A stretch of 63,100 nt of DNA, filler included, from Catajapyx aquilonaris (GCA_000934665.2; 3 parts of 3 records of this genome joined end to end with filler, not necessarily neighbours in it); one strand, 5' to 3'. Positions 900-42,161 are shown, numbered from the whole stretch's first letter. Numbers and translations are program-made. The notes: a model not told the origin generated them from the letters alone.

Positions 900-1650
900 T
901 CGGGTTCAAAGAATTGGGGAAACAAACATGTCGCATGCGAAAGTGAAATAGAATTACGCTACTCGTTTCATCAATACGCACAGAATGTTAATCTTTTGAG
1001 CACATTCGAGGTGAAGTTATTTTTAATGTTAATAATGAGCCTTGATATATAGGAAGTGGCAGAGATCCGTCCAGATAATATGGTATGTACGGGATGTCTT
1101 GCCATGCATCCAAATAGTTCACATATACCGTGTGGTTGTGTTAAGCCTCAGGAAGTCATCCCGGTGACAGTTATCAGTCAGCTTGGCGAGGGATGCAGCC
1201 ATGCGTCAGTTTCCTCGAGGCATTCGAGAGCAATATCTACTTCCGCTAGGTGCACCCTTGCCCTTTCTATCCAGCATTTATACTTCTTGTGCCCCGATAC
1301 TGTTCTTTGGCTGCACATAAATGCCCTATGAAGCAACGAGTCTCTTCCAGCTCTACCCAGTTTAAGGAGAAACCGTATGAGCAATTTAATCAGACGCGGT
1401 CGAATGGGTTTTAAGTTAAGTTCAAGTCTCAAAAAATATCGGCAGTGCGAAGAACTTCTTTATATATAAAAAGTTCTTCGCACCAAGAGTCCATCCTTCT
1501 CGGCTGCCCACAGCAAAGCTTTGATTCCAATCCAACTGAAGCCTGGAGTTACGTAAACAACAGGTGTGCCAATCTCTGGAACAATTTTTGCATTTACAGG
1601 TGTCAAGGCAACCGTGGCATAAACCAAATTGAATTTTCTGGCACTTTAAT
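900..1650 (-). pseudogene. Decayed non-LTR retrotransposon (LINE) ORF2 C-terminal fragment
   Basis: Broken minus-strand frames read ...KKFFALP...RLELNLKPIRPRLIKLLIRFLLKL...LLHRAF, resembling the post-RT region of L2/CR1-group LINEs. Boundaries approximate. Confidence 0.4.
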
Positions 1651-2082
1651 TAGGCGTATTCGGCAATGGGGCTGGCCAGCGCACTAACCGCATGGTGGCG
1701 TTAGTGGGCAATTGTGTGTAGCATTCTATCGATCATGAACTATTACATGTAAAAGCATGGAGCTACGAGGTTTTTGTTTGATTTTTTATTGGACTCGGGT
1801 GTGAGTGTGGGTCACACTTTATAGTGGTGATAGAGGCGGGATAGTTTGTGTGTGGAAGTGCGAAGGCGGCGGTCGAGGTCAGAGTCCCGCAAAAGCTCCA
1901 AAAAAATAAGGAAGAAACCATACAAACCATTCAAAAAAGCCTTGCCGCCTGGGGCGTATCCAACACCCACTAGTGACGTCACGGCGAAAGATGCGTTGCG
2001 CATTCGGGCGCGCCCTCTGTATCAAGGTAGGGATAGTCAATACACGGAGTAGGACTCCGTGGTCAATACGCTGACACGAGCG

Positions 2083-3576
2083 ATGCCCCACACGTGCGCG
2101 GTGCCAGGATGCACCAAGACAACCACCGGGCATTCCTTTCCGAAATGTCCGGTATTAAACCAGAAGTGGAGGGTGGCCATTCGGAGGAAGGACCCGAACT
2201 CGGTCGGGCTGTGGTGCCCAAAAAAACATCATGTTGTGTGCCACCTACATTTCACTGCTGATGATTTCCAACAAAATGAATTTGGCCCAGGTATGTAGAA
2301 AACCTTTCTCTCTGACTCGTTTGGCATGTCACACACACTCAGCAGTCAGCACCAACTTGCAGTCGCATGTATTTGGAAACTAATAACAATGTCATTAGCT
2401 AGGATGAAGAGGCTCAAGAAAGGTGCTATCCCGTCTGTGTTCCACTTTCGACCGGAGCCAGGGGTCACAGGCCGGGACATTAGGAGTTCCGAAAGGGAAA
2501 AGAAGAAGGAGGATGAGCGAAACTTTGCTATTCCAGAAGAGATAGGAGCAGAGGTGGATGCTGTGGCAGAGCTTGGAGAACAATGGGAATCTGCAGAAGC
2601 CGCTGAATACATTATGCCAAAGGTCTCCAACGCTGCAGTTCAGTGCACCATGGAAGCCAGTAGTGGGACCTATGTGAAGATGAAGATGACCTTCAGTCAA
2701 ATTGAAGATGACGCTGACCTAGTCAACTATTATACCGGATTTAAGAACAGGGATCTTTTTATGTTGTTCTTTAATATTTTGGGCCCAAGTGTACATGAGC
2801 TCAACTTCCAATGTAAATTGTTAGAACCAGTGGACCAATTGCTTTTAACATTAGTGAAGTTGCGGCAAGGTAGAGAAGACATAGATCTTGGGTTTTTGTT
2901 TGGACTGTCGAGAAGCACAGCATCCATGGTGTTTCATACCTGGCTGAATTTTCTCTACTATCATCTGAAAGAATTAAATTTCTGGCCGGACAGGGACACA
3001 GTGCATGACACAATGCCGATGAAGTTTCGGGCGGCATTCCCAACCACAAGGGTCATCATTGACACGACTGAAACCCCGATACAGAAACCATCAAATGTCA
3101 TTGCCCAAAGTGCTACATTTTCTACGTACAAAAACAGAAACACACTGAAAACACTAATTGGTTGTTCCCCTAGAGGATTGGTCACATTCATTAGTGACTC
3201 GTACGGTGGAAGTACTAGTGACAGACAAATAATAGAAAGATCTGAACTGGTACAATCTGATTTATTGCAGGCAGGTGATGTCATGTTGGCTGACAGAGGG
3301 TTTGTGATCCAAGACTTGTTTTCTCACAGAGATGTCCAAGTGAATACACCCACATTCTTGAGGGGCAAATCCCAGCTAGAACCCAAGCAGCTCATACATG
3401 ACCGAAGGATTGCGGCCAAACGCATCCATGTGGAAAGAGTGATTGGACTGGGAAAGACTTACAAAATGCTCACAAGGGAGCTGCCCCATCAGAAGATGCA
3501 CCTGGCAAGCAGAATTGTGTCTGTGTGTTTTATGATGTCAAATTTCAGGCCATCTATTGTCAATAGGCTGTGTTAA
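2083..3576 (+). CDS. THAP-domain DDE_Tnp_4 (Harbinger/ISL2EU) transposase, 2 exons (2083-2290, 2399-3576), ~461 aa
   Basis: THAP C2CH motif CAVPGC...W...VCHLHF, completed by LKKGAIPSVF after an in-phase GT-AG intron; HTH region DQLLLTLVKLRQ; catalytic motifs IIDTTE, LADRGF, RIHVERVIG. Confidence 0.92.
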
Positions 3577-3669
3577 CCATTAGCTGCCCAGCCAAAAAAT
3601 ACTTGATTACTTGTCAAAAGTTCAGCTGTGAGTAGGGTAGCTAATGGTTAACACAACCTGTTGACAATA
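3555..3669 (+). other. 35-bp inverted repeat (hairpin) spanning the transposase stop codon
   Basis: 3555-3589 matches the reverse complement of 3635-3669 with 3 differences. Confidence 0.8.
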
Positions 3670-4288
3670 AAACTATTTTGTCCAACAGTGTTCATCCTGC
3701 ATGGCCAGTCACACAATACTTGAATAAAAACTTCACAAGTTGTACAGTCAATTTTCATTCAATAGGCCATTTGGATATTAATGCACATGACTATGAATCT
3801 TATGGATATGTTTTCAATGCACTGTACTGACCATATGGATATACACAGTTTCAGACCAATGTTTCTGGTATGTGGATTCTCGCTATTTCATCAGAGCGTC
3901 AATGGACATAGGGGTACCAAGAATTCAGTGCTGCAACATTTTGGAAGCCACATACATTTTCTCTGTCAATAAACAGCATTTAGATGACTTGTTCATTCAT
4001 TCACTGTAAACCCTACACATTTCCTGTCACGATAGCAACGGAGGGAAAAAATAACATAACTACAAGTAGGTCAGTGGGACAAAGATTACTACTTTAAATT
4101 CACGAAGTGACCCTTAGCATTTCAGAAGAATGATGATGAATAATCTTAATACTATACATTTTCCACAAGTAACAAATCAAGAAATAGGCAGACAGTGATA
4201 TCAGTGCACAACAAGAAAAAAAGGATCATAAAAATTTAAAAACTTGTCAGTTGAGCACTCCAGGAAGTAAAACAAGAATAAATAATAA

Positions 4289-6901
4289 TCATAATGTGGC
4301 AGCAATGAATGGCCTATAATACTTCTCGTAGAAAAGACTCAGCTTGGGAAGCATTGATCCCATAAAATACTGCTCATCGAATTGCACATACTCAGTATAC
4401 AAATCTTCAAAGGTGTACACAACAAAAATGCACACATTCCTCTTTGTCACATACAGTTGCCCTTGTATTTGAAAATAGTGGCTGGAATTCCTGCTTAGAG
4501 CCACTGTGCCGTCTATTGTCGTCAAGAAAGGAAAATTACGACCTGGAGTTATCAAATCATTCCGCCCATTGAATGGGCACTTCACCTCCACTGTCATGGT
4601 GGTACCGACAAGTCCGTCTGGCGAGCCACCAAGAAACGGGTGGAGCTCGTCAACAAAAAACCCCGCCTTCTCAACTTTCACCTGTAGTTCTTCCTCCACT
4701 TTCCTGATTGCCACTGGCTCGAATTTCTTTCCGTGCAATGTGGCACTTGTCACAAAATGTCTTGGCTGGAAAATTGTAGCGCAAAGCTTTGTCATGTTGC
4801 GCCGGTCTGTTGCTTTGCAAATGCTGCCGAAATGTGATGCCGTCAGCCTCCAGGAGCGCTCATCATTCCAGCGTGCGCATGCTGCCTGTGCCTTTGTAGC
4901 CCTCTCAATGTGGTTTACTTGTTCACTTGTCACCTGCAGATTGTGAGATAGCACAGTATGATGATACAGACCAGATCACAATTCATTTATCTTACCTGCA
5001 ATGCATTGTCGACCCAATGCTCCGTAAAGGGAAGCTTTCCGTAATCATGCTCCCTGGCAGCAACCTGCACCTTAGCCCGGGAGTATGCAAACCGCATAGT
5101 CAAATCTTCATTTTTTTCTTTACAAAAATTTAACACCATATTTCGGACCCGATCCTGTAACCCGGGATCATTCCTTCGATGAAGTGGCCGAGGATCATCT
5201 GAGCTTCTGAGTCTAAGGGTACGGCCAAAATCTTTGACCGGGGAGGTGTGTGAAAGCCTCTTCGGTTGGTGGAATGTTTGTAGCCTGTTAGTGCAGCTTT
5301 TTGCAACCAGCAATTCCCCAGTCTCCTTAAAGTGCTGCAGCATGAGTAGCACAGCTGCAACATGTTTGCATGTTGCATGCGGGCCTTTTCCCGCTACACA
5401 CTCACACTGGGTGTTTACAACATCACCATGCTGATCCAGCTTCACATGGAAGTAGTACTTCACCTGTACGGAATAAGCAAAGTAATTTTTAACAATACCA
5501 GTAATAACGTGCATTTACGATAGTGTAAGAGGGAGATAACGAATGTATTGGCTACAAGCATGTAATGAAATTTTCATAGGCACAAAATGCATACTCTAAC
5601 TTTTCAGAAACAAGTTCAGGTTAAAGAGAAATGGAACCAATATACAGGGTTACTTTCAAAAATAAACCTGGATTCTCAAGTCTAATGTGTACAGTTTCGC
5701 TTTGCATTTTGTCTAAGAATATTACATGTAGGCCTACATGTAATGTAACTCACGTGTTTCTTCATTGCCGCCTTGGTCATTCCTGTGAAAAAGTAATCAC
5801 TGCCCTGAATGACACGGCTGCAGGCCACTATATTTTGGCTTTGTAGGAGGAGGCGACCTTTTACAATGGCCTTCATGTCTAGGTTAGGGTGAAAATCCAC
5901 CGCTTGCCGATGGAGTATGTAATACTCGATCTAATTTTTGAGAAATGCAGAATGAGACAACAATACGGAAATGTACTTAAATGACAACATCATGTATTTG
6001 AAATCACACTAGAAGGTGTATTGGAAAATATTACTTCATGCGCAAGAATCAAAAAAGTTAGGTTACAACCAGCTACAGTTTGAAATTGGGATTTGACGCT
6101 ATAGCATGGAGTGGAAAAAATTGTAATACGGTATGGTAAATAACATTCCCCACTTCTCCTGAGCAACCCACAAAATTCATGCTCACCTGTGACGTTTCTA
6201 TGCGGGGTAAACCATCCCTGTGAATGTCAAGCAGCTCCCGGTATCCATCTCTAGGCCATTCCACAGGGATTTCTTCAGGCAGGATTATATCTACGTTGCC
6301 ACTGAAGTTATCATTACGGTCATAACTTTCCAGCCTGGAAGTGTTGGAAGAATGGTGCATATTATTATATCATTTCAGGTCAACAGTTCCGGTCAAAATA
6401 TGCCAGGGGTCGAATCTTGAATTTTTATTCCAGATGAAAGGTTTGCACTCCAGACTTAATCTGGACTGTAAATTACTTAATTGGAGTGCTTCATTTTTAA
6501 ATATAGGGCTTAGTCACATTAAAAAATAGAGCCAACTTGAGTGCAAAGTTGCACTCCAAGGCTCACGTCAGTTTGGACAGCAGATATAACAATGGGTGGA
6601 ATTCTCGTCCCACTGCTAGTTACTGCTAACTTAGCGGTACCAGTATTGGCCTGGTACTGGTAAGTTAATAGTAACTAGCAGTGGGACGAAAATTCCACCC
6701 AATATATTTTGCAGTGCAAATGTCACTTTTGCATGCAAATATTTCGACCCCTGTTAGGTAGTACAAAGTTTTATTACCTCTGAACCAACTCCGCTTTCGT
6801 CCGGTTCTCGCACCACGCAGTGACAGGTCTTGCCGAAGTTGACGTACACTTTTTGTGCTGTAATCAGCAGTAGGCCTACCAAACTCATTTTGCTGGGACA
6901 T
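4289..6901 (-). CDS. SAP-like + SWIM zinc finger + YqaJ/lambda-exonuclease protein, 5 exons (6901-6778, 6334-6187, 5930-5754, 5463-4996, 4933-4289); 1-nt frameshift in exon 1
   Basis: SAP-like SVRQLRQDLSLRG..G(RKAELVQR)LE; SWIM CECVAG...CKHVAAVL; YqaJ motifs RLTASHF, GGSPDGL, VEVKCP, YFQIQGQL. All GT-AG introns are in phase except for the exon 1 shift. Confidence 0.85.
6594..6700. mobile_element. Small palindromic MITE in intron 1 of the YqaJ gene
   Basis: GGGTGGAATT...AATTCCACCC fold-back arms; AAT on both flanks. Confidence 0.65.
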
Positions 6902-7608
6902 AACTGCTCAAGTTATGCCCAGCGAGGGGAATGCGTGCAAGACGAGGTATGTGGGGGTGCGTGAGAGAAGGTAAATAGGTAGGTAAGAAGGCAAGGTAAA
7001 GGAAGGAGAGTAGGTGAAGGCAAGAAGCAAGGAGTGCAAGAAGCATGGGATCCACGTCTCACGATACCCATGCACGATACCCGCACGATACTATCTGGCT
7101 AATCTGGCTCTAAAGTGAAGCCAAATCACTTGGTCGAAGGCAATAGCGGCTACTTAGAAGTCTTGCCTACATTGCAAGGGTATTGCGGTTTCCCATAACA
7201 TTTGGGAAGATTACGGTGCGATGTTGCTGTTAACCCGTGATTCCGTCATGAATTTCATCTGTAAGGCTAATTATTCCTGGAACATGTCAGTATAACGTTA
7301 TACAGTAGCCGTTATTGGTCGCGGTCAGAGTCGCGCTCACGAATAGCTCTACGAGCCCTCCCTAAAATAGCAAATAACGCACAATTGCCCACTAGCGCCA
7401 ACTGGTGGCGTAGTTTGCGCCTGGCCAGCCCCATTCAGGAATCTGACTTCCTGGGGTGTTTGGATGTTCGGCAAATCAGGTGCCACGCCCCCTGAAGTAA
7501 GTGCGCATGCGCCCTACCTGACTTCCCAATCTCAGGAACTTAGTGTACTCCTGACCTGACTTACTTGCTGAGAAACAATTAACAAACAAATTATTATTAT
7601 GGATGCAG

Positions 7609-7754
7609 CAGTGTTGCCAATGCAAAATGACCAAAAACCCCGCGAGAGGACCTGAAAATACCCGATTTTACCCGCATTTTCATTTTACCCGCACCATTAC
7701 CCGCAAGCGTCCGAAATACGGAACCGAAATACCCGAACATTTGGCATATCACTG
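7609..7754. mobile_element. hAT-type MITE (146 bp)
   Basis: Termini CAGTGTTGCCAA / TTGGCATATCACTG; 8-bp TSD GGATGCAG at 7601-7608 and 7755-7762. Confidence 0.8.
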
Positions 7755-9839
7755 GGATGCAGCACAGGCGGGTAGGGGGGTCTCTCAGTTCGGCCGTTCG
7801 GCAATAATCTTCTGAGGGGCAGGGCTAACAACTCAGATATCACGTGACGCATCTCAGAAAAATCTGAATTGCCGAATACGCCTGTTATCTTCAAAATATG
7901 AGACTGTCATATGTCTCGGTGAGTTACGGAAAGTAAACTTGCGGCTGCCATGTAAAGCTACCAATAATAATAATCGGTTAAAATTTTTAAATAGTTTCAA
8001 AAATGTACTGTGTACATTATTACCGTGCAGTATAGTCCTGCATAGTTATAATTTAATAATTAATCCATTTCATTGAAGGTTTTGTTTGCAATTAATGGAT
8101 ATTTATAATTAAACTTGTTGCTTACAGAGTGGCTGTGAACTTAATGAATTATAATACTGGCCGATAATTACAGTACCGTCAAGCGGGGTTACTTAAGCCA
8201 CTTTTCAATTTCAGACATCTGCCAATTCAAGAGCATTGACTTTAGAGATTAGCTAATTGTTGTAAAACATGGGTCTACAGTTACGGTCGACGCATGCATG
8301 GATGAAAGTTTCCTACAACATGTATGATAGCAACAAAAAAAAAAAGAGGGAGCGGCTTAAGTTANCCCCCCCCCCCCCCCGATATGCCAGCAGGAAGAAT
8401 TCAGTGTTTCGCTTATGTTAGACGATGACACGTTAACAAAATCCGTTCACAGGGCGAAAATAAACATTTGCATATTGCTCCAGATTATTCAAAATTTCAG
8501 TTCATATAAGGGAAAGTATGGCAGCCTCTCTTTATGCTCACCGGCTGTACAGAAGAAACAATTTCCGATATGTGAACATTGTCGCGCTTCACACCTTAAG
8601 GCGACGGGGGATCAGGGGGTCATACTGAAAGCACGACACTTCAAGGCTCTCTGCTACCTTCTTTAATGGACACGTTTGGGTAGAATACATACAGAATACC
8701 AGGGCAGTCTTCACGGCCGGGGAGCATCCGCCCGTGCAGGGGAGCCGGCGGCGGGCAGTACAAACTACAACTGGCCTGCGACACCACCCCACGCATCAAA
8801 TCTGTGACTAGGAGGAACAATTCCCAAACTTAGAGCACCAGCACCCATAACATGGTGCTCAGAACAAATCCACCAGATGTGCTCTTACAAAATGCAAACC
8901 AAACAGAAACTCACTTCACCACACACACAAAAAATTAAAAATGGCACATCCACAGACAAAAAAATGCTCCGTCTTGTCCAAAAAGCTTTTTTACATGATT
9001 GCCTGGATCACGCAATCACTGAAATCACTAGGGGGGGGGGGGGGGTTCCTTGAAACAAGGAGCGGCCCAGGCCATAGGTAACTTACGAGTAAAATCTTCA
9101 CCATGACCAGATCTAATCTCAAACAGACTAATCAAAGAATGTAAAACCAGTTTATGGGATACATTATTCAAAATATATTGCTGATATATTGTTTTATCAC
9201 GCAGAAAATACCTCTTAAATTGAGCCAAGCGAGGGTGTCACCCGTTTCAGGGTGAGCATAAATGAGAGCGAAAAGGGTCCATTTCAAGTCCTCTTTTATT
9301 TCGAGTGTAACATTAAAGGCGGATGCTTAGGTAAAGGAAATTTGTCAGGATAATATAGGTAAGGTAGTTAGATCAGTACATTGACGACATGATCAAAGGG
9401 TTGGATAGGTGATCCCATTTGCAGGGATTGGACTCCACCTTTCCACGACACTATTTGCAGGATATTCTCCTGGACGTGTCGGACCAGTCCTCTGGGGCGA
9501 ACCCTACGAGAAAAGGCCTCGAGTGAAAGTGGTAGGTGGCTTATATACACACAGTCGCAATGCATGGTTGGTCTGATAGTCTGTTCCCCTTAGGTGGGCG
9601 ATTTCGACATATTCTTGGGCACAGCCCAGCACTACATTACTTGGCCCACATACCTCAGTAATATGAAATATTTTGGTCACAAGGGTAATACCAATCTATA
9701 AAAATGGAGCCAGGGCTCGCCCTGAAAATTAACGACATATCGCCATTTTCAATAATACATTTAAATTATTTACGTCAATATTAACAAGAAGAGTAGGTTG
9801 GTAAGATACTTCAAAGACAATAATCGTAAGATTAACAGC

Positions 9840-10093
9840 TCGAATAGCAATGTTATTTTCTGCAAGGAATGGACAATGTCTGACTTCAGCTTCTTTCACT
9901 TGATTTTTAGTGTCACAGTAGCTTCATTCGGTTTCATGCATTCTGCCAAAGTTCTTTGTTTTGAACCATATCCCAAAGATCTTTTCTTGTTGATGTGCTT
10001 TGCACCTTCGGCATGCCTCTTTAGTACTGAAATTTCAGCACCAAATATAGCGTCACAAAACTTGCACTTATAGCTTGTGTCACCGTTAGCCAC
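9840..10093 (-). pseudogene. BED/C2H2-like zinc finger fragment from a transposase N-terminus
   Basis: YKCKFCDAIF...LKRHAEGAKH...QRTL motif; no catalytic domain follows. Confidence 0.55.
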
Positions 10094-10162
10094 GTAATGG
10101 TTTTGGTCAAGGTCCTCAAAGATTTGTCGGAAAGTGTCCCGCTTGACGTGGAATGCCTCATG

Positions 10163-10226
<64 letters not shown>

Positions 10227-10239
10227 TAACCTCACATAT

Positions 10240-10790
10240 ATACACTGTTTGTAATTCCTCCTTATTTTTTTTTCCTCTGCCCTTCCTGGGCTTTTTCTTT
10301 TTCAAGATGGCAAGCAGATCGTGCAGCTTCGATGATGTCATATACACACCAGAAAAAGATTCCCCTTGCACTGTTACACTTTGAATAAATCCCAAAGTCT
10401 GTCCATATTCTGCGGGGTATGTCACATTCCTTAATGTAATACACGCACAAGCACAGACACAGTGCCTTCTCGATGGTGATGCAGGTGGATGGCAGCATTA
10501 TTTTTCCATCTGAAGACCAGACTGCCTTTTCTGTTGTCCGCCAGTACACTATTGGACCCGGACATGTTAATAATTGTTTTAATAATGTTGGTCTTGTGCT
10601 CCTGGACAAGTGGGTGGGTCTGGGCTCTTTTCCCATCCATGACATCACACAGTACACCTGTGACGGTGTCTGCGTTGGGCTATCTTTGAAATACTTCAGC
10701 AATTCTGGTGCCTTCAGCATATTCAACAACATGGACCTGAGCCTGATGATATGCACCACTTGTCCATTTTTCAGGGTTACTGCCACTGGT
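10240..10790 (-). pseudogene. Frameshifted TE accessory-ORF fragment (possibly CACTA/EnSpm-like)
   Basis: Joined across a frameshift: EKALCLCLCVYYIKE/MTYPAEYGQTLGFIQ, resembling a YY..N..YP....T..FIQ motif recalled from animal DNA-transposon accessory proteins. Confidence 0.35.
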
Positions 10791-11006
10791 GGAACATAGA
10801 CCCCCTTTTCCTCATAAAATAACTTGCGCCTTTTGTCATTTTCAAATTTGGTGATGTCAATTTATTTCTCCACCCGTGCTTTCAATCAAATCTTTCACAC
10901 TCCTGACTGTTGCAGTCGTAGAATATGCTGAGCTGAAGGTACCGGAGGTTGCGGAAACTGCTCACTGACCCTAGGATGCCATCCTCTGTAATCTGGGAGC
11001 TTCCTG

Positions 11007-11399
11007 CTAGACGGAAGTGTGTCTATCTTCCAAGCCTCGGCACAGGTTTGATAAGTTAATATCATCAGTATCTGCACTAGAAATGTCACTGTTCAGTGCC
11101 TCATTGGTCACAGAATTTTGTGCATCATCGGGATTGCATGGTAACTGGGATGGAGCAAGATCTTCATCGTCACATTCCACTGTGTTTTGGTGCAGCAAGT
11201 AATGACTTCTGTAATGCAACTTGTGCCAAAACGAAGATTTACAAATTCTGCAAACATACGTTGGTTTATGAGAATGGAGTAGTTTAAAATGGCCCATGAA
11301 GTGACTGCACTTGGTTGTACTGTAACGACACTCTGTGCACGTATGATGGTCAATACTAACTGAACCCATTCCTGATGAGGTTGATGGTCCAGTTATCAC
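11007..11399 (-). pseudogene. Tandem C2H2 zinc-finger fragment (TE-derived or captured)
   Basis: CTEC...HFKLLH and CRIC...HYLLH. Confidence 0.55.
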
Positions 11400-12379
11400 T
11401 TCAGCCTCTGGTGCCTGTGTCTCTGCTCCAGCTAGGACTTCAGTCTCTTCACTGAGGCTCTCAGGTAACCCTTCGTGAAGGGATCTTTGTGGGCTCCTTT
11501 CCCTTGTGGCATCAGCTTGTTCAGGGAGAGAAGCAGGATAATAAATTAATCACTTACATTGCAATTGGCAGCAATGCAATGGAAAGGATAATTGCCCAAT
11601 AATTATTACCAGCAAGTGTGTCCAGCCTATGATGCTGTGTAGGGGGATGGCCACAATAGCCACTCCAACCACGTCCTGACTTCGCATCCTTGGCTTGCCC
11701 GGAATCTTGCTTCAATTCAAACCCCCCTTTTATCTCTGTCCATGTGTTAAGAATAGAGTCACAACTGGTAACAACAATGGGGCGTGCAGAAGGTGCAACA
11801 CAGAAAGGAGAACACAGCGGGAAGCCTGCAAAAAGCATACCAGGCTTGGAAGCATGGTCGGGTTCAGAACAGGAAACAGCTTTTCAACTTCTACGTGACT
11901 CACGTCTCACGTACCCTGTTTTGAGATGCCCTGATTATTCTAAGCCGTTTATATATTCCTCCGATTCCTCTGGTTTTGCAATGGGGAACTAGCCTTGGTC
12001 TGGGATTTGGGATATTTGTTGATAACTAGCTAGCCCATGCCTGTAAACATACATTCCATCACTCTGTTGCATCAAAATGACATTACAGGATAAATTACGG
12101 CACATTTAAAAGTGCCTTCAAAATTGGCGGGAAAAACGCCGCTGCCAATCGAAAGGGTACACTGAAATGCCTGGTTGACTGCGAGATATGAGGAATTTGA
12201 CTTTGAATTAACCGCGGACACGACGGAAAGCATTCGCAAGGCGGCTGTAGGCCATCGAGGTGGAGAAGGGGGGCCTTCATGTGCCGAATTCGGGTGACAG
12301 ATGATTCCTGCCAGTTGGCACCACTGCCAGCCCATCAGCTGAATGAGCGGGGTGAAGTAAAAACGCGCCCCGGGGCCCG

Positions 12380-12435
12380 GCCGCCATCTTGCTTGATATA
12401 TCGATGCAAAAATTATCGATATATCTGATATCGGG
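12380..12435 (+). promoter_or_regulatory. Candidate promoter of the YqaJ gene (YY1-like CCGCCATCTT and DRE TATCGATA)
   Basis: Motifs lie ~150 bp upstream of ATG 12570; function not shown. Confidence 0.4.
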
Positions 12436-12569
12436 TGTCCATACTTCCACCTGTTGTTGCCGGACGTGCATCTGTTCCTCCCGACTTTGTCAGTACCGTA
12501 CCGTCCGTACGTTGTGTCCCCTCCGCCATACCCGGCTGCCGTTCGTCTCGTCTCGTACCGCACCTCGCA

Positions 12570-15325
12570 ATGGAGCAGGGATTTGAGAAGGCAGTCTCAA
12601 CCAACCTTCCGGAGGTAGACAGTGTGATGGTGGGGGACTACCTCAGTCGTCACCCGTACCTGACAACAGCCGAAATGAGGGGCGTAAAGGTGGCAAGGTA
12701 TGCATACTGGACATTGAGAAATACTGTATTCAGCAATAAGGATACAGAGCTTTTTATCTCAAATGGTTAGTTTCACAGGAAAAGCATAGAGAAGACTGTT
12801 CTGTTCAGGAAAGGCGCTAAAGCTTGACAGATTTAGATTTTTTGACAACTTTATCCCGTAACCTGTGGCGAAGTCAGCTCACTGCCAGTTAATTTCAAAT
12901 CGGAGACCCTACTTATCCCCATATATGTATAGCTGAAAGTTTGTACATATATTTTATGTCACGCCTAATTAAGCCACTTCCCGGGTACGGAGAGCGCTCA
13001 AATTGGGCTCAAATGAGGGCAACTGTGCTCACATTTCTTTTTTGCCTTGTGACAACATTCCATGTAAATGCATCCATCTGTCCATGGCAGACATTGTCAA
13101 GATCAACAATCAAGAAAGGTCGTCGCGAAGCAAAAAGAAATGTAAGCAACTGGGGCGACAGTTAGGTGGGAGGTTAGGTTAGGTTGGTAACATAAATATC
13201 CACCATAACCATGCACAGTGATAAACCACCACCCAGTCCCACAGGAGCTAGCCTTGCTAATCTAGCCTGACTCATCATAATTATATTTGCTAATCAAAAT
13301 CTATAATGAAACCCTTGGTAAAGTTATTTCATGTGGTTGGATTGACATTTCATTATTTGAGCGCCCACCTCTCCCTTTATTTATTGTGCTCTGCAATAGC
13401 ACGTACGGTAACCGACATGATGTCACAGCAGAATACCCATATACCTCCCACCACAATGGCTTGAAGCTACACATTTATGATTGATACCAATTTGCGGTCT
13501 CTTGTAACATTGTAAGCAACTTCTTATGACAATCACCAGTTTGTCACATTCACTTTCTTCTACATGTTATTGCGTAAGCATCCTTTTATTACAACCCAGC
13601 CATCCTCATGCACATGTAAAAAAATACTCTGTTGGATTTTAATTACGGTATATTTTTGCATGTTCCACCACTAGGGCTGGAGATAAAAGCTATGGAGATG
13701 CAGCCATTGGCTACGTACAAGTGCAAAGAAATGCAACTTTATGCACTGTCCGGGGAAAAGTTTGTCCGCAGACTAAGTGCAGGGATAAGCCCTACAATGT
13801 GATTGTAGTGGTGGATGAGAAGGACAGCCAAGTTGTCAGCGCGAAGTGCACTGACTGCATTGCAAGTGAAGGTACGCACACCCTATTTTTGTCAACATTC
13901 TGCCATGAAAACCATCTGTAAATGAAAACAGGAGTTTAAAAATTAAAAAGGATATCAAAGTACTCATTAATTTAATCAGCAAAATATTTCAAATTACAAA
14001 AATTGGATATGATCCGATAAGTACTACCCATACATGATCTCCTTACAGGTGAATGCAAGCATATGTTTATTTAATTACAATGAGATTTTACACAAGTGAC
14101 TGTGAATCCACTTGATTGAAAGAGTAAATTACAAAAATTGTATCCGACCCAATGCAAAATGCTCATAAGTTATCTCTTCACAGGTGGATGCAAGCACATG
14201 GTGGCCTTCCTCATGTGGCTCCATCGCAGGAGTGAAGAGCCTGCCCCTACAGAGGTAGATTGCTACTGGAAGAAGCCAGCCCTTGCAGTTGCAGTAACTA
14301 GTAAGCGCTGTGTCACTGCCACAGATCTTGGCTCCAGCAGAGCAAAGAAGCGCAATGTCCCTAGGACGACCTCCCAAGATGGCCTCTTCCTTCAAGAGGT
14401 CATCAGGCAAGGAAGTGTGAGCAATGAGCTGGTGAAGCACTACAGGGAGCCAAGTCCTATTGACCAAGTTTCCGTGCACACGATGCTCTACACCTTCAAG
14501 GAAAAGAGCACAACTCATTTAGCCAATGAGTTCCTTGATTTCTGCAGCACAGTGATGGAAAGCAAGCTGTGCAATGAAGCAACAGTTGCTACAACAGGAC
14601 AAGCAAAATCGACCGAATGGTTTAAACTCAGATATGGTCGAATAACAGCTTCCACTGTCTATGATGCAGCCCACTGCCACACTACAGGCACGTTAGCTGA
14701 AAAGATCCTTGGAGCTTCACAGGTGATTAGATAATCTAGAGATTTTATGTTGACTATTAATCCTTTGGTCACTGAACAGAACAACCCTGGTTAATATAAC
14801 TGAAGTCATCACCAAATGAAAATAATTTCTGTATGTACAAATAGGTAAACATTGCAAACTAACAAATTCCTTGGATCCTCTCAGGCATTCTCATCACCAG
14901 CCATGGAGAGAGGGAAGCGGCTCGAACCAATGGTGCTGAAGGTCCTTGGAAAGCAGTTGGGTGTAACTTTACACAAATGTGGCTTACTGCTCAAGACGGA
15001 GCTGCCTATTTTTGGAGCTTCTCCAGACGGAATTACCAGCGAATTCATTGTAGAAGTGAAGTGTCCTTCCATTGAGGAAACATACAAGAGATACTTCACC
15101 AGCCAGGGGTCACCAACCCCAAATGTTTATGCACAAATGCAACTTCAAATGCATATGGCAGGGAAGAAGAAGGGCGTGTTTTGTGTTGCAAATGCAGATT
15201 TTGAGACGTCAAAAAACATCACTCACATCTTGGTGGACTACAATGATGATCATGCAATGGAACTGATAACTGATGCAACTTTGTTCTGGAAAACTCACAT
15301 TTTTCCAATAATGATACAACAATAA
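12570..15325 (+). CDS. SWIM zinc finger + YqaJ/lambda-exonuclease protein, 4 exons (12570-12697, 13675-13871, 14184-14722, 14885-15325)
   Basis: In-phase GT-AG introns; YGDAAIGYVQ motif; SWIM CTDCIASEGGCKH; YqaJ motifs WFKLRYGRITAS, GASPDG, VEVKCP, YAQMQLQM; AATAAA at the stop. Confidence 0.9.
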
Positions 15326-15403
15326 AATGTGCCTCCAACATTTCAAGTCAAGTTATATGTTGCCATATGTTATACTGTATGTTGGTGATCTAATACTATT
15401 GCA

Positions 15404-17553
15404 CTACTTCACTAGGGGACCTTGCATATTGATGAGACCTCCTGCTATATTCACAGCAAAATCAGTGCATGGCACCAAGTGACAGTCAATACAAGAATAG
15501 GGCATCAGCATGTTAAACTCCCTGAAGCGCCTGACGACTCTTTCAATATGGACTCGCAAGCTGGCAACCTGCCTGCACAACCTTGCTTCTGCCTTGCTCA
15601 TCTTCTCCCCTGGTACTACACTTGGAGGACGAACAAGTGAACACCCCTTGGCATGTAACAGGCCCCCCACATGCTTGAATCCTCTGTCAGCCATTACAAC
15701 TGATCCAGGGGTCAGACAATCCAAGTACCCACAAATTTCAAATAGATGTGTGTCAGCTATCCGCCCTCCATAACCTTGCGACACAAAGTTCACGACGCCA
15801 TTAGGTGTGGTGGACACAAGGTACTTTAACGTGTTCGCCTTCTTGTAGTCGGACCACGTCAAAGCTTGAAGGACAGGGTTAGAGGGCTTCTCAATTTGAA
15901 TTTCAAAGCCATCAATTAAAGACTGGACATTACTGTAACGAGCCCTGAAAGGAATGGGCAAAAGCCTATGGATGGACTCCTTGTCAGGCCAAACAATAAG
16001 CTCTTTCATGTAGTCGGATATTAGAGCCACATATGTCTTAAATACCCTCCCTGCTTGACTTTCGGAAATTCCAAATTCAATCCCTAAGATTGCAAAAGGC
16101 TCACCCAGCCGTATCTTCCTAAGCACCAGAGCCACAATATCCCTAGGCAATAACCAGCGTCCCTTGAAAGAAATTCTTGCAGCCAAAGTGTCCAAAATAA
16201 ACAAACTATTCTCTGGCACACCCAGATATAGCCTACTGTGCTTGTTGTGCAAGGAGCGAACTCTTTCTAAACTGGTACTTCTCATTTGCAAATCTTCGAT
16301 GTTTGATTCACCGCTCTCACTATCATCCATCTCATCGTCATCACCTGTGAAGCCACTCCAACCAGATTCATCAGTACTGCTAATAGTCTCAGTGCCGGTC
16401 TGCTCATCATCGCTGCTCGAGTCAGAAGTGTGATCAGCATCAAGTTTTCGTTTTTTGGTGGGGAATTTAATAGGTGATAGGGATGCATCTGATGTTTGCG
16501 CCTTACAGAGGTTCACTTGCGATGTCTTGCTACGGTATGATGGCTTGACATGGGGGAGGCTAGGTGCTTTGTCTGTGGCAGAACACGAGGGCATTTCCTT
16601 GTCAGCAACACCTGCAAATGAGAATTTGAAATGTTTACTGTCACCATCATATCGAAAGGTTTTTTTTCCATCCCTGTAACCTCATTCTGAACTGCTGAGA
16701 ATTTGTCAAAAGAAAACACTGCGGCAGTCATCTAGCGCCATTTTGATGGATTTTCAGGTCACTTGAAGAGCCAAAAACCTGGATGTGTCATTATTCGGAA
16801 CCTATTACAACTTCCCCAAATGTCAATGAAATGTTTTGTGCTGCTTCACACATATTCTGAGCATGACAGAGGTAAATGTTTAACCCTGAATTTAAAAAAT
16901 CCCCTGAAGTTGCACTTGAGGCACATAACTTACTGTGTTTTTGCTTTTGGGGGCAGATATGGTGATGCAGCTGTTGTAGGCCTATAAGCAGGCAGCAACA
17001 TGCATACCTTGAATCAGGAATGTGTTTAAACTCACATGTTTGTTGTGAAGTGCTGCCAGATGTACTTGAGTCTGCGCCACTGAAACCTGGCTGGCAGTCA
17101 AATACATGTGGTATGATGTGTGGCTTCAATCTGGGTCGAACCCCCATCATCTTGACCTGGAGAAAGTTTTCTGCATCTTCTTCCAGCTGTAAATAATTTA
17201 GTGATATTATTTTGATGTATTCGACTCTGACGGTCTATTCTCAATAATGTGCAGTAGGACTTAATAGTATCACATCAAGGAGGTGTGGTTATCTAGTGGC
17301 TATTGCCACAGACTGCGGATCTGGTGAGGAGCACTGAGCTCCCAGGCCAGGTTTGACGTCCCAAGCAAAAACCCTGTATGTGTAGTTTTTGTCATATCGA
17401 GATAATTGCATTTGAAGTTGGACTTTGCACTGCAATATGCACATCCCCTCCTGACACTGCAAGAGGCAGTGGCCACAATATATAAAATTTCCGCATCTAC
17501 CATACATAACAAAAACAATAACTGTCCCGCATTAAAAGGTCCAACTACCTTAA

Positions 17554-17624
<71 letters not shown>

Positions 17625-18094
17625 GACTACCTTCATTTGTGACTTGCATAATATAATGGAGCACATACTTTAAAGTGATCCTCACAGCAGCGCAGCTGTG
17701 TACTGTCGCTGGGTGGCAGTGGGCGGTAATCATCCCTCTGGCAGGCCTCAAGCCACCGCCTTCTTGCATCCACATTTTTCACACCAGGCACAGAGAAGAA
17801 CACCTTCTCTGGATTTCTTTTGATGTGGTTCATGCATGTGGGAACAATGCATTTGTCCTTAATGTTAACCCCAACCGTCTTATGACGCTTGCCATCACCC
17901 CCAGCTGGCTTGTCATCACCTCCATCCATCCCTATTCCTCTCTGGCAGGTCAAGCCAGCATCCAACGCGTTGATCTGTTGAATTTCAAAGACGACTTTGA
18001 TGTATGTGCAACTACAGTAGGCGAGCGAGTGAGACAGCATAGCAGATATGCACTTACCGCTAAACCGCTCACGCTGCTTCACTCCCTCCGGCAC
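15404..18094 (-). CDS. THAP-domain DDE_Tnp_4 transposase, multi-exon (catalytic exon 16611-15404; THAP exons ~17975-17669 and from 17186; other exons uncertain)
   Basis: THAP CIVPTC...W...CCEDHF joined to ...LKPHIIPHVF; catalytic motifs LIDGFE, MADRGF, RVHIERVVR. Confidence 0.85.
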
Positions 18095-18929
18095 ACAGTG
18101 GGGTGGGTTGGCAGGTCGGTTCGCCCCGGGGCGACCTGACCGCCCTCCAAACCGAGCTCTGGACCGGACACTTACTCAAACGCACACGCAGGCACCAGGA
18201 ATATCTTACAACGGCTTACAACAGCGAACAAATTTACGACCCTGCCGGGGCGCGTTCTATAACACCATTTTTGCCTTCATTTCACTTCGCGTGACGTCAA
18301 CATCTTCTAGGGAAACAGTGACGTCACCATTTCCCTACATAAAAACCCCAATTACTCCGGAACGGGAACTGATATCTGAAAACGGAATATGCCAAAAAAA
18401 TCCAAAAAATATGGGCGAATTTATTATGTAGTTTCCAAAATGAAGGCTAGTTCCCCATTGGTTGCACTCTGTCTCAAAAATTTGAAGACGGTGTTCATCC
18501 ACTTGCCTACATAAGTAGACAGTTGTCGAAACCGGAAATGAATTACTCCACAACCGAAATAGAATCTTTGGGAGTAGTATGTGGTATCAACGTGTTGCCA
18601 TCTCCATGGACGGAGGTTCACGGTAATAACAGACCACGTTTCACTCAAGTGGTTGCTGTCTCTGAAAGATCCTTCGTCTCGTTTGGCTCGCTGGAGTCTA
18701 ACTCTTCATGAGTATGAATTCGAGATTGTCCACAAGGCAGGCACGCCTTTACCTCCTGTAGACGCTCTGCCCAGGATTCCTATCCGTTACTATCCGTTAC
18801 GTCACATTGTAATGCCCAGGATGTTATTCAATTGTTTCATTCATGTTTGTTGTTCTCGTTCAATGTCATTCAATTGTTTTATTCTTGTTGATCGTTCTTG
18901 TTCAAAGAGTTCTGCTGTATTATATATAC

Positions 18930-42061: not shown

Positions 42062-42161
42062 NNNNNNNNNNNNNNNNNNNNNNNNNNNNNNNNNNNNNNN
42101 NNNNNTTAATTAATTAANNNNNNNNNNNNNNNNNNNNNNNNNNNNNNNNNNNNNNNNNNNN

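What the first reader, a model, noticed from the sequence alone, without database searches (positions are those of the whole stretch)
1668..18456. Two divergent transposons share a THAP-DDE transposase + SWIM-YqaJ exonuclease two-gene module
Seen: two TIR/TSD-bounded elements 4.5 kb apart have unrelated TIR sequences and different intron structures. Both keep a convergent transposase plus SWIM-finger/YqaJ gene with intact catalytic motifs (SPDG, EVK, QxQxQ). Known: ISL2EU elements pair a Harbinger-like transposase with a YqaJ protein instead of the Myb/SANT partner, and YqaJ belongs to the lambda-exonuclease family that resects DNA ends 5'->3' in phage recombination. Inference: retention in both lineages suggests a required, largely uncharacterised nuclease step, such as resecting the donor break to favour homologous copy-back or processing ends/targets. 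This is the best candidate system in the window, although the superfamily itself is described.
Basis: partly seen in the sequence, partly recalled or inferred. Interest (0 to 1): 0.8.

Follow-up and report, generated by a model that had tools for sequence, protein, structure and literature searches.

The report
Two intact ISL2EU transposons with nuclease
The window holds two complete jumping genes of an already described type (ISL2EU), each carrying a cut-and-paste enzyme gene and a second gene for a DNA-end-chewing nuclease; the nuclease looks necessary, but its job has never been tested.

Summary
Confirmed. The window holds two complete DNA transposons bounded by TIRs and TSDs: E1 (1668-7432) and E2 (11983-18456). 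Each has an intact THAP-HTH-DDE_Tnp_4 transposase gene and a convergent SWIM-YqaJ gene with a lambda-exonuclease fold. Both have TIRs starting GGGG and an AT duplication in an A|AT|T target. Both empty sites are verified: E2 splits an RNase H domain between profile positions 41 and 42, and contigs join across it.

These are the published features of the ISL2EU group (PHIS superfamily), so the system is known. The copies are new members of two deeply diverged families (34% and 26% identity).

New support for a required nuclease:
- Of 80 metagenome loci with a YqaJ relative, 39 carry the transposase, always convergent (26 of 27 where there is room).
- D-E-K is intact in 75 of 79.
- dN/dS is 0.07-0.66.
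- The two genes co-diverge (r 0.86).

E2's ends are shared by a very abundant family of short derivatives. What the nuclease does remains untested. I favour 5'-strand processing of transposition breaks, most likely resection of the donor break. The scan has noted ISL2EU-type pairs before on other DNA (Trichoplax, Ostreococcus). Interest is modest.

The parts
1668..7432 (.). Element E1, a complete ISL2EU transposon (5765 bp)
   Evidence: TIR pair and AT TSD. The inverted repeat of the host element is restored when E1 plus one AT is removed.
1666..1667 (.). E1 left copy of the AT target site duplication; the right copy is at 7433-7434
   Evidence: Read directly from the sequence. The target reads CA|AT|TC.
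1668..1679 (+). E1 left TIR, GGGGCTGGCCAG. The imperfect extension runs to 1719 and includes a 15-bp subterminal motif at 1702-1716.
7421..7432 (-). E1 right TIR. The imperfect extension starts at 7377 and the 15-bp motif is at 7380-7394.
2083..3576 (+). E1 transposase gene (461 aa). Exons are 2083-2290 and 2399-3576. It has THAP (C5, C10, C53, H56), HTH_Tnp_4 and DDE_Tnp_4 with triad D291, D368, E415.
   Evidence: Homologues P0124, P0221 and P0143 show a gap exactly over the stop-containing intron.
4289..6360 (-). E1 SWIM-YqaJ gene (487 aa). Exons are 6360-6187, 5930-5754, 5463-4996 and 4933-4289. SWIM ligands are C137, C139, C149, H151; nuclease residues are D379, E389, K391.
6778..6901 (-). 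Possible upstream SAP-like exon of the E1 nuclease gene. Its splicing is unresolved.
   Evidence: The stretch ...LRQDLSLRGARTGRKRS resembles the SAP N-terminus of homologues P0005, P0016 and P0024. Pfam SAP gives no hit at E<=0.05, and I found no canonical donor/acceptor pair in a compatible phase.
6593..6701 (.). Palindromic high-copy short element nested in E1, upstream of nuclease exon 1
   Evidence: Arms of 51 nt, 90% complementary. Contig depth is 7k-11k against about 30 for single-copy sequence, with loose ends at 6594 and 6701.
11983..18456 (.). Element E2, a complete ISL2EU transposon (6474 bp) of a second, distant family
   Evidence: TIR pair and AT TSD. Empty site shown by ORF restoration, by Pfam positions 41/42 and by contigs joining 11980 to 18457.
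11981..11982 (.). E2 left copy of the AT target site duplication; the right copy is at 18457-18458
   Evidence: The 2-base ambiguity of the joint agrees.
11983..11996 (+). E2 left TIR, GGGGAACTAGCCTT. The left terminal region up to about 12329 is shared with very abundant short derivatives.
   Evidence: Summed contig depth is 36k-65k in bin 11770-12334, with loose ends at 11979/11980 and 12329.
18443..18456 (-). E2 right TIR. The right terminal region from about 18233 is shared with the same derivatives.
   Evidence: Depth is 26k-48k in bin 17985-18520, with loose ends at 18233 and 18459.
12570..15325 (+). E2 SWIM-YqaJ gene (434 aa). Exons are 12570-12697, 13675-13871, 14184-14722 and 14885-15325. 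The SWIM-like finger has C101, C104, C111, H113 and is split by an intron. Nuclease residues are D336, E345, K347.
   Evidence: Collinear with insect proteins of 433-441 aa.
15404..17929 (-). E2 transposase gene (539 aa). Exons are 17929-17669, 17186-17036 and 16611-15404. It has THAP (C27, C32, C82, H85), an HTH and DDE triad D371, D446, E494. An (ATT)n run at 17557-17624 lies in intron 1.
11864..11980 (+). Left half of the RNase H domain of the gypsy-like pol gene that E2 interrupts; the right half starts at 18459

Best explanation
What it is. These are two autonomous cut-and-paste DNA transposons of the ISL2EU group (PHIS, or Harbinger-like, superfamily). They belong to two anciently separated families and lie 4.5 kb apart in a repeat-rich stretch of an animal genome.

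Shown here. Each element is a tail-to-tail two-gene module. One gene encodes a transposase with a THAP zinc finger and HTH for DNA binding and a complete DDE_Tnp_4 catalytic triad. The other encodes a protein with an N-terminal SWIM domain, a flexible linker and a C-terminal PD-(D/E)xK nuclease. That nuclease has the lambda-exonuclease/LHK-Exo fold and a complete D...ExK site. The nuclease gene is a conserved, selected and co-inherited part of the element.

Inferred. The transposase binds the ends at the GGGG-starting TIRs and subterminal motifs, excises the element and inserts it at A|AT|T, duplicating AT. The nuclease degrades or cuts 5' strands at the DNA breaks that transposition makes.

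My odds for the step:
- About 0.4: 5'-to-3' resection of the donor-site break, so that repair copies the element back from the sister or homologue and each jump gives a net gain.
- About 0.25: it acts inside the transpososome as the 5'-strand (second-strand) nuclease.
- About 0.1: it trims 5' flaps or overhangs at the new insertion.
- The remainder: other roles or a non-catalytic role.

The confidence figure below refers to the identification and to the claim that the nuclease is a functional, required part. It does not refer to the specific step.
For: Identity. Domains are confirmed by Pfam. The DDE triad is invariant or nearly invariant in 51 aligned sequences. TIRs, TSD and target are read from the sequence. 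Both empty sites are verified. All of this agrees with the published ISL2EU description.

Nuclease.
- D106, E116, K118 and Q155 (exon numbering) are invariant in 61 sequences, including both window genes.
- A profile of these sequences hits LHK-Exo 3syy at 2.5e-30 and lambda exonuclease at 2.9e-17.
- The AF2 model has pLDDT 97.8.
- Foldseek ranks LHK-Exo and lambda exonuclease first, TM 0.62-0.74.
- VIA-align on the full-length homologue gives Z 19.1 to LHK-Exo and 17.9 to lambda exonuclease. Its N-terminal domain matches ZSWIM8 at Z 10.8 over 100 residues.

Required part.
- 39 of 80 metagenome loci with a YqaJ relative carry an ISL2EU transposase.
- In 39 of 39 the transposase is downstream on the opposite strand.
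- It is present in 26 of 27 loci with >=2.5 kb of room and in 35 of 39 with >=1.5 kb.
- D-E-K is intact in 75 of 79.
- Twelve pairs with dS 0.03-1.2 give dN/dS of 0.07-0.66.
- Pairwise distances of the two genes correlate at r 0.86 over 435 pairs of 30 elements. 0 of 2000 permutations reach that value.
- Of the 16 listed differences between E1 copies that fall in coding sequence, 11 are synonymous.
- A sea-spider genome has the two genes as neighbours, r2_g4267 and r2_g4268.

Mobility. TIRs are perfect, TSDs intact and frames open. Deletion derivatives exist: the joint 2191>7000 for E1, and 12224>18262, 12517>18046 and 12545>18046 for E2. The E2 end regions have summed contig depth roughly a thousand-fold above single-copy level.

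Step. The 5'-nuclease reading fits the fold. Lambda-exonuclease-like nucleases are also carried by KolobokE transposons (PMC9587614, passages). Earlier scan notes, not tested here, report an EXO1/XPG-type 5' nuclease with a SWIM finger in the same position in algal relatives.
Against: - No activity of any of the four proteins was measured, and no RNA data were available.
- Pfam SWIM scores for the window's E1 protein are below the curated cut-off (17.9-18.1 against 19.6).
- E2's finger is CxxC...CxH, not the canonical CxC...CxH, and is split by an intron. It is supported only by alignment.
- The SWIM fold match was obtained on a mollusc homologue that is 46-49% identical over the window's exons 3 and 4, not on the window's own protein.
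- The linkage and selection statistics come from metagenome relatives that were picked through the motif Y[YFW]xQ[IV]QGQ[LM]. They therefore favour intact copies, and the QxQxQ conservation among them is by construction.
- 10 of 79 nuclease HSPs carry stops and 4 of 79 have lost a catalytic residue.
- Pairs in the dN/dS list are not independent, and linked genes are expected to co-diverge.
- Contig depths are sums and not copy numbers.
- E2's interior is at about single-copy depth, so current activity is not shown.
- Against a chemical need for a nuclease: PIF/Harbinger relatives with the same transposase fold use a Myb-like partner and no nuclease.
- An earlier scan note, not tested here, describes a domesticated pair whose YqaJ lost its catalytic residues.
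Confidence: 0.88

Rival explanations
1. The YqaJ protein is an integral second catalytic subunit of the transposase. The DDE protein would cut and join only the 3' ends, and the PD-(D/E)xK nuclease would cut or remove the 5' strands. This is how TnsA works with TnsB in bacterial Tn7 (recalled; TnsA is listed as a PD-(D/E)xK transposition nuclease in PMC3424549).
For: - Obligate tail-to-tail linkage and co-divergence with the transposase.
- The nuclease carries extra domains (SWIM, and SAP in some relatives) that could tether it to DNA or to the transposase.
- Two unrelated kinds of 5' nuclease are reported in the same position in related elements (earlier notes, not tested).
Against: - The closest folds are processive toroidal exonucleases (LHK-Exo, lambda exonuclease), not site-specific endonucleases.
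- PIF/Harbinger elements with homologous transposases manage without a nuclease.
- No interaction was tested.
Confidence: 0.25
2. The nuclease acts after integration or on the excised element. It would trim 5' overhangs or flaps left by staggered cuts, so that the 2-bp gaps can be filled and sealed.
For: - The fold is that of a 5'-to-3' nuclease.
- The staggered 2-bp target cut is implied by the AT duplication.
- A flap-nuclease-type (XPG/EXO1) partner is reported in algal relatives (earlier notes, not tested).
Against: Host flap nucleases do this job for other cut-and-paste elements (established knowledge, recalled), so the selective benefit is unclear. Nothing in the sequence points to this step rather than another.
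Confidence: 0.1
3. The second protein is kept mainly for a non-catalytic or non-transposition role. It might be a DNA-binding or targeting partner like the Myb-like protein of Harbinger, or it might act against host defence or on other DNA. On this reading the nuclease chemistry is not part of transposition.
For: [quoted passage not shown]
- SWIM and SAP modules are present.
Against: The catalytic D-E-K residues are intact in 75 of 79 relatives and invariant in the 61-sequence alignment. The nuclease domain is under purifying selection. That would not be expected if only binding mattered.
Confidence: 0.1
4. The two copies are immobile relics or host-captured genes rather than live transposons.
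For: E2's interior is at about single-copy depth and E1's at about twice that.
Against: - TIRs are perfect and TSDs intact.
- All four frames are open, with canonical introns and complete catalytic residues.
- Both insertions lie in other repeats, which is an unlikely place for host genes.
- Deletion derivatives and abundant short derivatives share the exact ends.
Confidence: 0.05

Closest known systems
ISL2EU group of the PHIS (PIF/Harbinger-ISL2EU-Spy) DNA transposon superfamily (Han et al. 2014, 2015: PMC4122938, PMC4482050; Repbase ISL2EU, recalled)
   Same: A THAP+HTH+DDE transposase, a second ORF with a YqaJ exonuclease domain, a 2-bp AT TSD in an A|AT|T target, TIRs starting GG, and occurrence in invertebrates. 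All were checked on both elements.
   Different: Nothing essential differs. Points these papers do not mention, in the passages I read, are the full SWIM domain (ZSWIM8-like fold) ahead of the nuclease, the SAP domain in some relatives, the strictly convergent gene order, and the very abundant short derivatives of E2. 'SWIM' occurs 0 times in PMC4482050. Repbase entries could not be consulted.
PIF/Harbinger transposons proper
   Same: A homologous DDE_Tnp_4 transposase with an HTH, a two-gene layout and an AT-rich target.
   Different: Harbinger has a 3-bp TWA duplication and a Myb/SANT partner protein. The elements here have a 2-bp AT duplication, a nuclease partner and a THAP finger on the transposase.
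Lambda exonuclease / LHK-Exo (YqaJ family, PF09588), the 5'-to-3' exonucleases of phage recombination
   Same: Same fold and same catalytic D...ExK. Foldseek TM is 0.62-0.74, VIA Z is 17.9-19.1 and the profile E-value is 2.5e-30.
   Different: The phage enzymes are single-domain toroidal trimers that work with an annealing protein (Red-beta/RecT). Here the nuclease follows a SWIM domain and a roughly 100-residue disordered linker. It is carried by a eukaryotic transposon with a DDE transposase, and I did not identify an annealing-protein gene. Oligomeric state was not tested.
Tn7 TnsA/TnsB heteromeric transposase (recalled; TnsA listed as PD-(D/E)xK in PMC3424549)
   Same: A DDE protein plus a PD-(D/E)xK nuclease encoded together by one mobile element.
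   Different: TnsA has a restriction-endonuclease-like fold and cuts at a defined position. The protein here is closest to processive exonucleases. This is an analogy only: there is no homology beyond the superfamily and no interaction evidence.
KolobokE transposons (PMC9587614, passages read)
   Same: A eukaryotic DDE transposon lineage that carries a lambda-exonuclease-like PD-(D/E)xK nuclease.
   Different: There the nuclease is fused downstream of a Kolobok-type transposase. Here it is a separate convergent gene beside a Harbinger-type transposase. The YqaJ fusions to Pfam 'Mutator' transposases seen may be of that kind (not checked).

Membership tests
ISL2EU (PHIS superfamily) | DDE_Tnp_4-type transposase with an HTH and an N-terminal THAP finger | tested here: met
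   Both elements have THAP (2.8e-10, 1.8e-9), HTH_Tnp_4 (1.7e-17, 1.8e-7) and DDE_Tnp_4 (4.7e-42, 7.4e-32). The DDE triad and C2CH ligands are located.
ISL2EU (PHIS superfamily) | [quoted passage not shown] | tested here: met
   PF09588 scores 53.6 and 48.8 bits against a cut-off of 22. Catalytic residues are intact.
ISL2EU (PHIS superfamily) | 2-bp target site duplication, typically AT, in the target A|AT|T | tested here: met
   AT/AT flanks both elements inside CA-AT-TC and CA-AT-TG. The empty site is confirmed by contigs with a 2-base overlap and by Pfam positions 41/42 of the split RNase H domain.
ISL2EU (PHIS superfamily) | TIRs that begin with GG | tested here: met
   GGGGCTGGCCAG and GGGGAACTAGCCTT.
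ISL2EU (PHIS superfamily) | Transposase falls in the ISL2EU clade rather than the PIF/Harbinger or Spy clades | tested here: inconclusive
   No named reference ISL2EU, Harbinger or Spy sequences were on hand, so no tree was built. Indirect support: the nearest relatives carry THAP, and the 39 transposases found beside YqaJ genes are homologues at 28-59% identity.
PIF/Harbinger proper | 3-bp TWA duplication and a Myb/SANT partner ORF | tested here: not met
   The TSD is 2-bp AT. The partner is SWIM-YqaJ, with no Myb hit in Pfam scans of its exons.
Spy | No TSD, insertion between AAA and TTT, single ORF | tested here: not met
   An AT duplication is present and there are two ORFs.
YqaJ / lambda exonuclease (PF09588) | PD-(D/E)xK core with the catalytic D...ExK | tested here: met
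   D379/E389/K391 in E1 and D336/E345/K347 in E2. These columns are invariant in 61 sequences.
YqaJ / lambda exonuclease (PF09588) | Lambda-exonuclease fold | tested here: met
   The model of the window's E1 exon 4 has pLDDT 97.8. Top Foldseek hits are 3syy, 6m9k, 3sm4 and 1avq, TM 0.62-0.74.
YqaJ / lambda exonuclease (PF09588) | Toroidal trimer with processive 5'-to-3' exonuclease activity on 5'-phosphorylated double-strand ends | not testable with these tools
   This needs biochemistry. The complex predictor was not available.
YqaJ / lambda exonuclease (PF09588) | Works with a single-strand annealing partner (Red-beta/RecT type) encoded nearby | not tested
   Only two genes were modelled per element. 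The other short ORFs inside the elements were not all scanned.
SWIM zinc finger (PF04434) | CxCxnCxH signature and a Pfam score above the cut-off | tested here: inconclusive
   E1 has C137-x-C139-x9-C149-x-H151 but scores 17.9-18.1 bits against 19.6. E2 has C101-x2-C104-x6-C111-x-H113, split by an intron. Homologue P0005 passes at 20.3 bits. The ligands are nearly invariant in 42 sequences.
SWIM zinc finger (PF04434) | SWIM-domain fold | tested here: met
   Tested on a homologue only. Residues 46-164 of P0002 (49% identical over the window's E1 exon 4 and 46% over exon 3) match ZSWIM8 residues 112-214 at Z 10.8, rmsd 2.2, 100 aligned.

The most novel reading that the evidence does not exclude
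ISL2EU elements would be the first eukaryotic transposons with a two-nuclease transposase. The DDE protein would make only the 3'-end cuts and the strand transfer. The SWIM-tethered lambda-exonuclease-like protein would be the obligatory 5'-strand nuclease of the same complex, a eukaryotic counterpart of Tn7 TnsA/TnsB. That would explain its strict convergent linkage and its co-divergence with the transposase. It would also explain the reported replacement by an unrelated 5' nuclease in algal relatives.
Probability: 0.25. Interest if true: 0.75.

Novelty: new member of a known kind. Interest (0 to 1): 0.3.

Why it matters
The role of the second ORF of ISL2EU elements is stated as unknown in the literature (PMC4482050). 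These two copies are complete, have open frames and intact catalytic residues, and E2 has a large family of short derivatives. They could therefore serve as a natural autonomous/non-autonomous pair for a reconstituted transposition assay with and without the nuclease.

The comparative figures obtained here turn 'retained in two lineages' into a quantified case that the nuclease is part of the transposition machinery. Those figures are the constant convergent linkage, dN/dS below 1, the conserved D-E-K and the co-divergence. If the nuclease biases donor repair or supplies second-strand cleavage, that would be a new principle for eukaryotic cut-and-paste elements. As it stands, this is a clean example of a described family.

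Tried and rejected
- **Whole genome.** None is held for this window, so genome-wide copy counts could not be made.
- **RNA evidence.** No RNA holder was listed for E1. The five runs are DNA or unknown and are kept as contigs, so expression and splicing could not be checked.
- **Protein complex.** The queue was full each time and the tool then became unavailable. Nothing was folded, so binding is untested.
- **SAP exon of E1.** The sequence resembles SAP-bearing homologues. Pfam SAP did not hit at E<=0.05, tblastn did not align it, and I found no splice in a compatible phase. It is left open.
- **Other copies in the window.** Self-BLAST of the element ends, the introns and the region between the convergent genes found none.
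- **Other nuclease types behind this SWIM module.** phmmer of E1 exon 3 against 1.84 billion representatives gave 783 hits at E<=0.001. I scanned 29 of the best 150, those of 330 aa or more. Of these, 24 carry YqaJ, 5 look truncated and none carries another nuclease domain. The protein-atlas look-up without YqaJ clusters gave only unnamed arthropod clusters.
- **TIRs in the metagenome loci.** An exact inverted-repeat scan of 22 loci gave no consistent GG.../AT pattern. The method is too crude and many contigs are cut, so this was dropped.
- **dN/dS between E1 and E2.** Rejected as meaningless at 26-34% protein identity.
- **Literature.** The search for YqaJ + SWIM + transposon returned 4 papers, none on this topic judging by title and abstract. 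The search for ISL2EU + exonuclease from 2016 returned 5 papers. From their titles, abstract openings and the passages read in two of them, none is a functional study of the YqaJ protein. Repbase Reports are not in the library.

Full report
**1. What is in the sequence**

The region lies in eukaryotic DNA. Earlier notes of this scan call the genome arthropod; I did not test that.

Element ends:
- A search for inverted repeats around the given coordinates found two pairs of perfect terminal repeats.
- GGGGCTGGCCAG lies at 1668-1679 and inverted at 7421-7432. It has 2 matches in the window at <=1 mismatch, with 0.24 expected.
- GGGGAACTAGCCTT lies at 11983-11996 and inverted at 18443-18456. It has 2 matches at <=2 mismatches, with 0.34 expected.
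- E1's repeats continue imperfectly for about 56 bp at 80% identity. They hold a perfectly conserved 15-bp subterminal motif at 1702-1716 and 7380-7394.
- Both elements are flanked by AT on each side, inside CA-AT-TC (E1) and CA-AT-TG (E2).
Both start GGGG and share the target.

**2. Both are true insertions**

E2:
- Deleting E2 and one AT in a script restores a continuous frame...KPFIYSSDSSGFAIGCTLSQKFEDGVHPLAYISRQLS....
- The left flank matches Pfam RT_RNaseH_2 positions 3-41 and the right flank matches positions 42-86. E2 therefore sits inside the RNase H domain of a gypsy-like retroelement.
- DNA contigs from public runs join 11980 to 18457. They skip 6476 bases with a 2-base ambiguity, at a depth of 177-263 where single-copy sequence has about 25-35. 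Other copies of the retroelement thus lack E2 and carry a single AT.

E1:
- The 16 bases left of the element and the 4 bases right of it together form a 20-bp sequence, AGGCGTATTCGGCAATTCAG. Its reverse complement lies at 7864-7883.
- E1 therefore landed in the terminal repeat of an older short element.

**3. Genes**

All four genes have open frames and GT-AG introns.

| Gene | Strand | Length | Exons |
|---|---|---|---|
| E1 transposase | + | 461 aa | 2083-2290, 2399-3576 |
| E1 nuclease | - | 487 aa | 6360-6187, 5930-5754, 5463-4996, 4933-4289 |
| E2 nuclease | + | 434 aa | 12570-12697, 13675-13871, 14184-14722, 14885-15325 |
| E2 transposase | - | 539 aa | 17929-17669, 17186-17036, 16611-15404 |

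Support for the models:
- Three homologous transposases align to E1 with a gap exactly over the 36 codons that hold the in-frame stop.
- The mollusc proteins of 466-492 aa among those shown are collinear with the E1 nuclease model.
- Insect proteins of 433-441 aa are collinear with the E2 nuclease model.
- Intron positions differ between the elements. For example, E2 has an intron inside the SWIM finger and one inside the YqaJ domain where E1 has none.

Domains and residues:
- Pfam gives THAP, HTH_Tnp_4 and DDE_Tnp_4 for both transposases and YqaJ for both partners.
- The zinc ligands of THAP, the DDE triads (E1 D291, D368, E415; E2 D371, D446, E494) and the nuclease residues (E1 D379, E389, K391; E2 D336, E345, K347) are all present.
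- The two elements are only 34% identical in the transposase core and 26% in the nuclease domain. They belong to two old families.

Nearest relatives:
- E1's nearest nuclease relatives are mollusc proteins at 43-49% identity. Its nearest transposase relatives are mollusc and brachiopod proteins at 45-58%.
- The nearest relatives of E2's nuclease are insect proteins at 40-52%.

**4. The second protein**

- An alignment of 61 sequences, including both window genes, has G68, G91, D106, E116, K118 and Q155 invariant.
- Its profile finds LHK-Exo (3syy, 2.5e-30), lambda exonuclease (2.9e-17), mimivirus R354 and herpesvirus SOX among solved structures.
- The AlphaFold model of the window's own E1 exon 4 has mean pLDDT 97.8. 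Its best Foldseek matches are LHK-Exo and lambda exonuclease, TM 0.62-0.74.
- A full-length model was made of the mollusc homologue P0002, which is 46% and 49% identical to the window's exons 3 and 4. It shows two folded domains joined by a linker of low confidence, roughly residues 170-260.
- In that model, residues 266-488 match LHK-Exo at Z 19.1 and lambda exonuclease at Z 17.9. Residues 46-164 match the SWIM region of ZSWIM8 at Z 10.8, rmsd 2.2 over 100 residues.
- Pfam SWIM on the window's E1 protein is just below the curated cut-off, 17.9-18.1 against 19.6 bits.
- The four ligands are nearly invariant in 42 sequences.
- E2's finger reads CxxC...CxH.
- Some relatives start with a SAP domain. 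E1 has a SAP-like stretch at 6778-6901, but I could not splice it in frame.

**5. Comparison with what is known**

Three papers describe ISL2EU exactly this way. I read passages only, found by term search.
[quoted passage not shown] - PMC4122938 gives the 2-bp TSD, typically AT, and contrasts the YqaJ ORF with the Myb/SANT ORF of PIF/Harbinger.
- PMC9179366 repeats this.

Four of five membership features were tested and met. The fifth, placement in a tree with named references, could not be done.

The defining features of PIF/Harbinger proper (3-bp TWA, Myb partner) and of Spy (no TSD, one ORF) are not met.

The finding is therefore a new member, strictly two members, of a known kind.

**6. 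Is the nuclease a needed part?**

I fetched 80 metagenome loci that encode a relative of the nuclease. They were picked through the motif Y[YFW]xQ[IV]QGQ[LM], which biases them to intact copies and makes QxQxQ conservation circular.

- Linkage. tblastn with the window's four proteins found an ISL2EU-type transposase in 39 of the 80. In 39 of 39 it lies downstream of the nuclease gene on the other strand. It is present in 26 of 27 loci with at least 2.5 kb of room downstream and in 35 of 39 with at least 1.5 kb.
- Catalytic residues. The catalytic D is kept in 79 of 79, E in 76 of 79 and K in 78 of 79. All three are kept in 75 of 79.
- Decay. Ten of 79 nuclease HSPs and 2 of 32 transposase HSPs carry stops, as expected for a mixture of live and dead copies.
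- Selection. Nei-Gojobori estimates for the 12 pairs with dS between 0.03 and 1.2 give dN/dS of 0.07 to 0.66. The higher values come mostly from pairs that include copies with lost catalytic residues. The single transposase pair in range gives 0.07.
- Co-divergence. Across 30 elements with both genes, protein distances of the two genes correlate at r 0.86 over 435 pairs. 0 of 2000 permutations reach that value, and 17 of 30 elements have the same nearest neighbour in both genes.
- Within the window's species. The differences listed between E1 and its other copies are 11 synonymous and 5 non-synonymous, 16 in coding sequence in all, from a truncated table.

The nuclease is not evolving neutrally and is not often lost from copies that keep a transposase.

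**7. Activity**

From contig depths, which are rough sums and not copy numbers:
- E2's interior is about single copy and identical to the window.
- E1's interior is about twice the baseline, with contigs differing at 2 of 928, 4 of 855 and 21 of 1176 positions.
- Deletion derivatives exist for both: E1 joint 2191>7000 at depth 182-325, and E2 joints 12224>18262, 12517>18046 and 12545>18046.
- The E2 end regions (about 11983-12329 and 18233-18456) reach summed depths of 26k-65k, with loose ends exactly at the element's termini.

E2, or a close relative, therefore looks like the autonomous partner of a very abundant family of short non-autonomous elements. This is consistent with transposase activity in the past, but it does not date that activity.

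**8. How it most likely works**

Shown: the architecture, the intact catalytic sites, the fold, the linkage and the selection.

Inferred: the transposase recognises the ends through its THAP and HTH domains, cuts, and inserts at A|AT|T. The nuclease processes 5' strands at the resulting breaks.

- I put about 0.4 on resection of the donor break, which would favour copy-back repair. The closest folds are processive 5'-to-3' exonucleases that create recombinogenic 3' tails. Such a bias would benefit any cut-and-paste element.
- That general benefit fits two further observations. KolobokE elements carry lambda-exonuclease-like nucleases (PMC9587614). Earlier scan notes, not tested here, report an EXO1/XPG-type nuclease with a SWIM finger in the same position in algal Harbinger-like elements.
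- I put about 0.25 on a TnsA-like role as the 5'-strand nuclease inside the transpososome.
- I put about 0.1 on flap or overhang trimming at the insertion.
- The remainder covers other or non-catalytic roles.
- Harbinger relatives need no nuclease. That argues against a strict chemical need of this transposase fold.

**9. Verdict**

The system is already described, and the scan has noted ISL2EU-type pairs on other DNA before. Interest is 0.3.

Noticed in passing
window 6593-6701: A palindromic short element (51-nt arms, 90% complementary) is nested in E1 upstream of nuclease exon 1. Summed contig depth is 7k-11k against about 30 for single-copy sequence, with loose ends at 6594 and 6701. It is therefore a very abundant MITE-like repeat.
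   Followed up: partly
window about 1646-1667 plus 7433-7886: An older short element of about 470 bp, with a 20-bp terminal inverted repeat (AGGCGTATTCGGCAATTCAG), into whose left repeat E1 inserted. A contig at single-copy depth (22-29) joins 1645 to 7887, so a form lacking both this element and E1 exists in the sample.
   Followed up: partly
window 11660-19015 (+) and 34460-39576 (-): Two gypsy-like LTR retroelement remnants. One is interrupted by E2 and has a later frameshift. The other, in the GC-rich strand-skewed stretch, has integrase and RNase H domains. The window as a whole is repeat-rich.
   Followed up: partly
window 14047-14075: Inside intron 2 of the E2 nuclease gene there is a short look-alike of the start of the next exon: an acceptor-like ...cag followed by GECKHM... 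and then a stop. It may be a decayed exon duplicate or a decoy splice site.
   Followed up: no
proteins P0047, P0039, P0045, P0048: Relatives of the YqaJ domain occur fused to a Pfam 'Mutator-like transposase' domain in a weevil and a tick. They also occur in proteins of about 1,350-1,400 residues with PHD, one of which (P0045) also has Ulp1-protease. These may correspond to the published KolobokE lineage (PMC9587614). This was not checked.
   Followed up: partly
window 3555-3589 and 3635-3669: An inverted repeat (35-nt arms, 91% complementary) starts on the last codons and stop codon of the E1 transposase gene, in the gap between the two convergent genes. It is a possible transcript-end hairpin.
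   Followed up: no
window 9896-11549 (-): A run of ORFs with C2H2-like zinc-finger motifs and an (ATT)n microsatellite at 10164-10226. Pfam gives no family above threshold. Whether this is a host gene or another repeat is undecided.
   Followed up: no
window 20947-21046 and 42062-42161: Two places each have two runs of 44 N separated by 12 bases, and there are single Ns at 8365 and 26377. I did not look into these.
   Followed up: no
E1 genes versus databases: Both E1 genes have their nearest named relatives in bivalves, a brachiopod and a sea spider at about 45-58% identity. Earlier notes call the host an arthropod. E2's nuclease is nearest to insect proteins. The patchy distribution could reflect horizontal transfer or sampling.
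   Followed up: no
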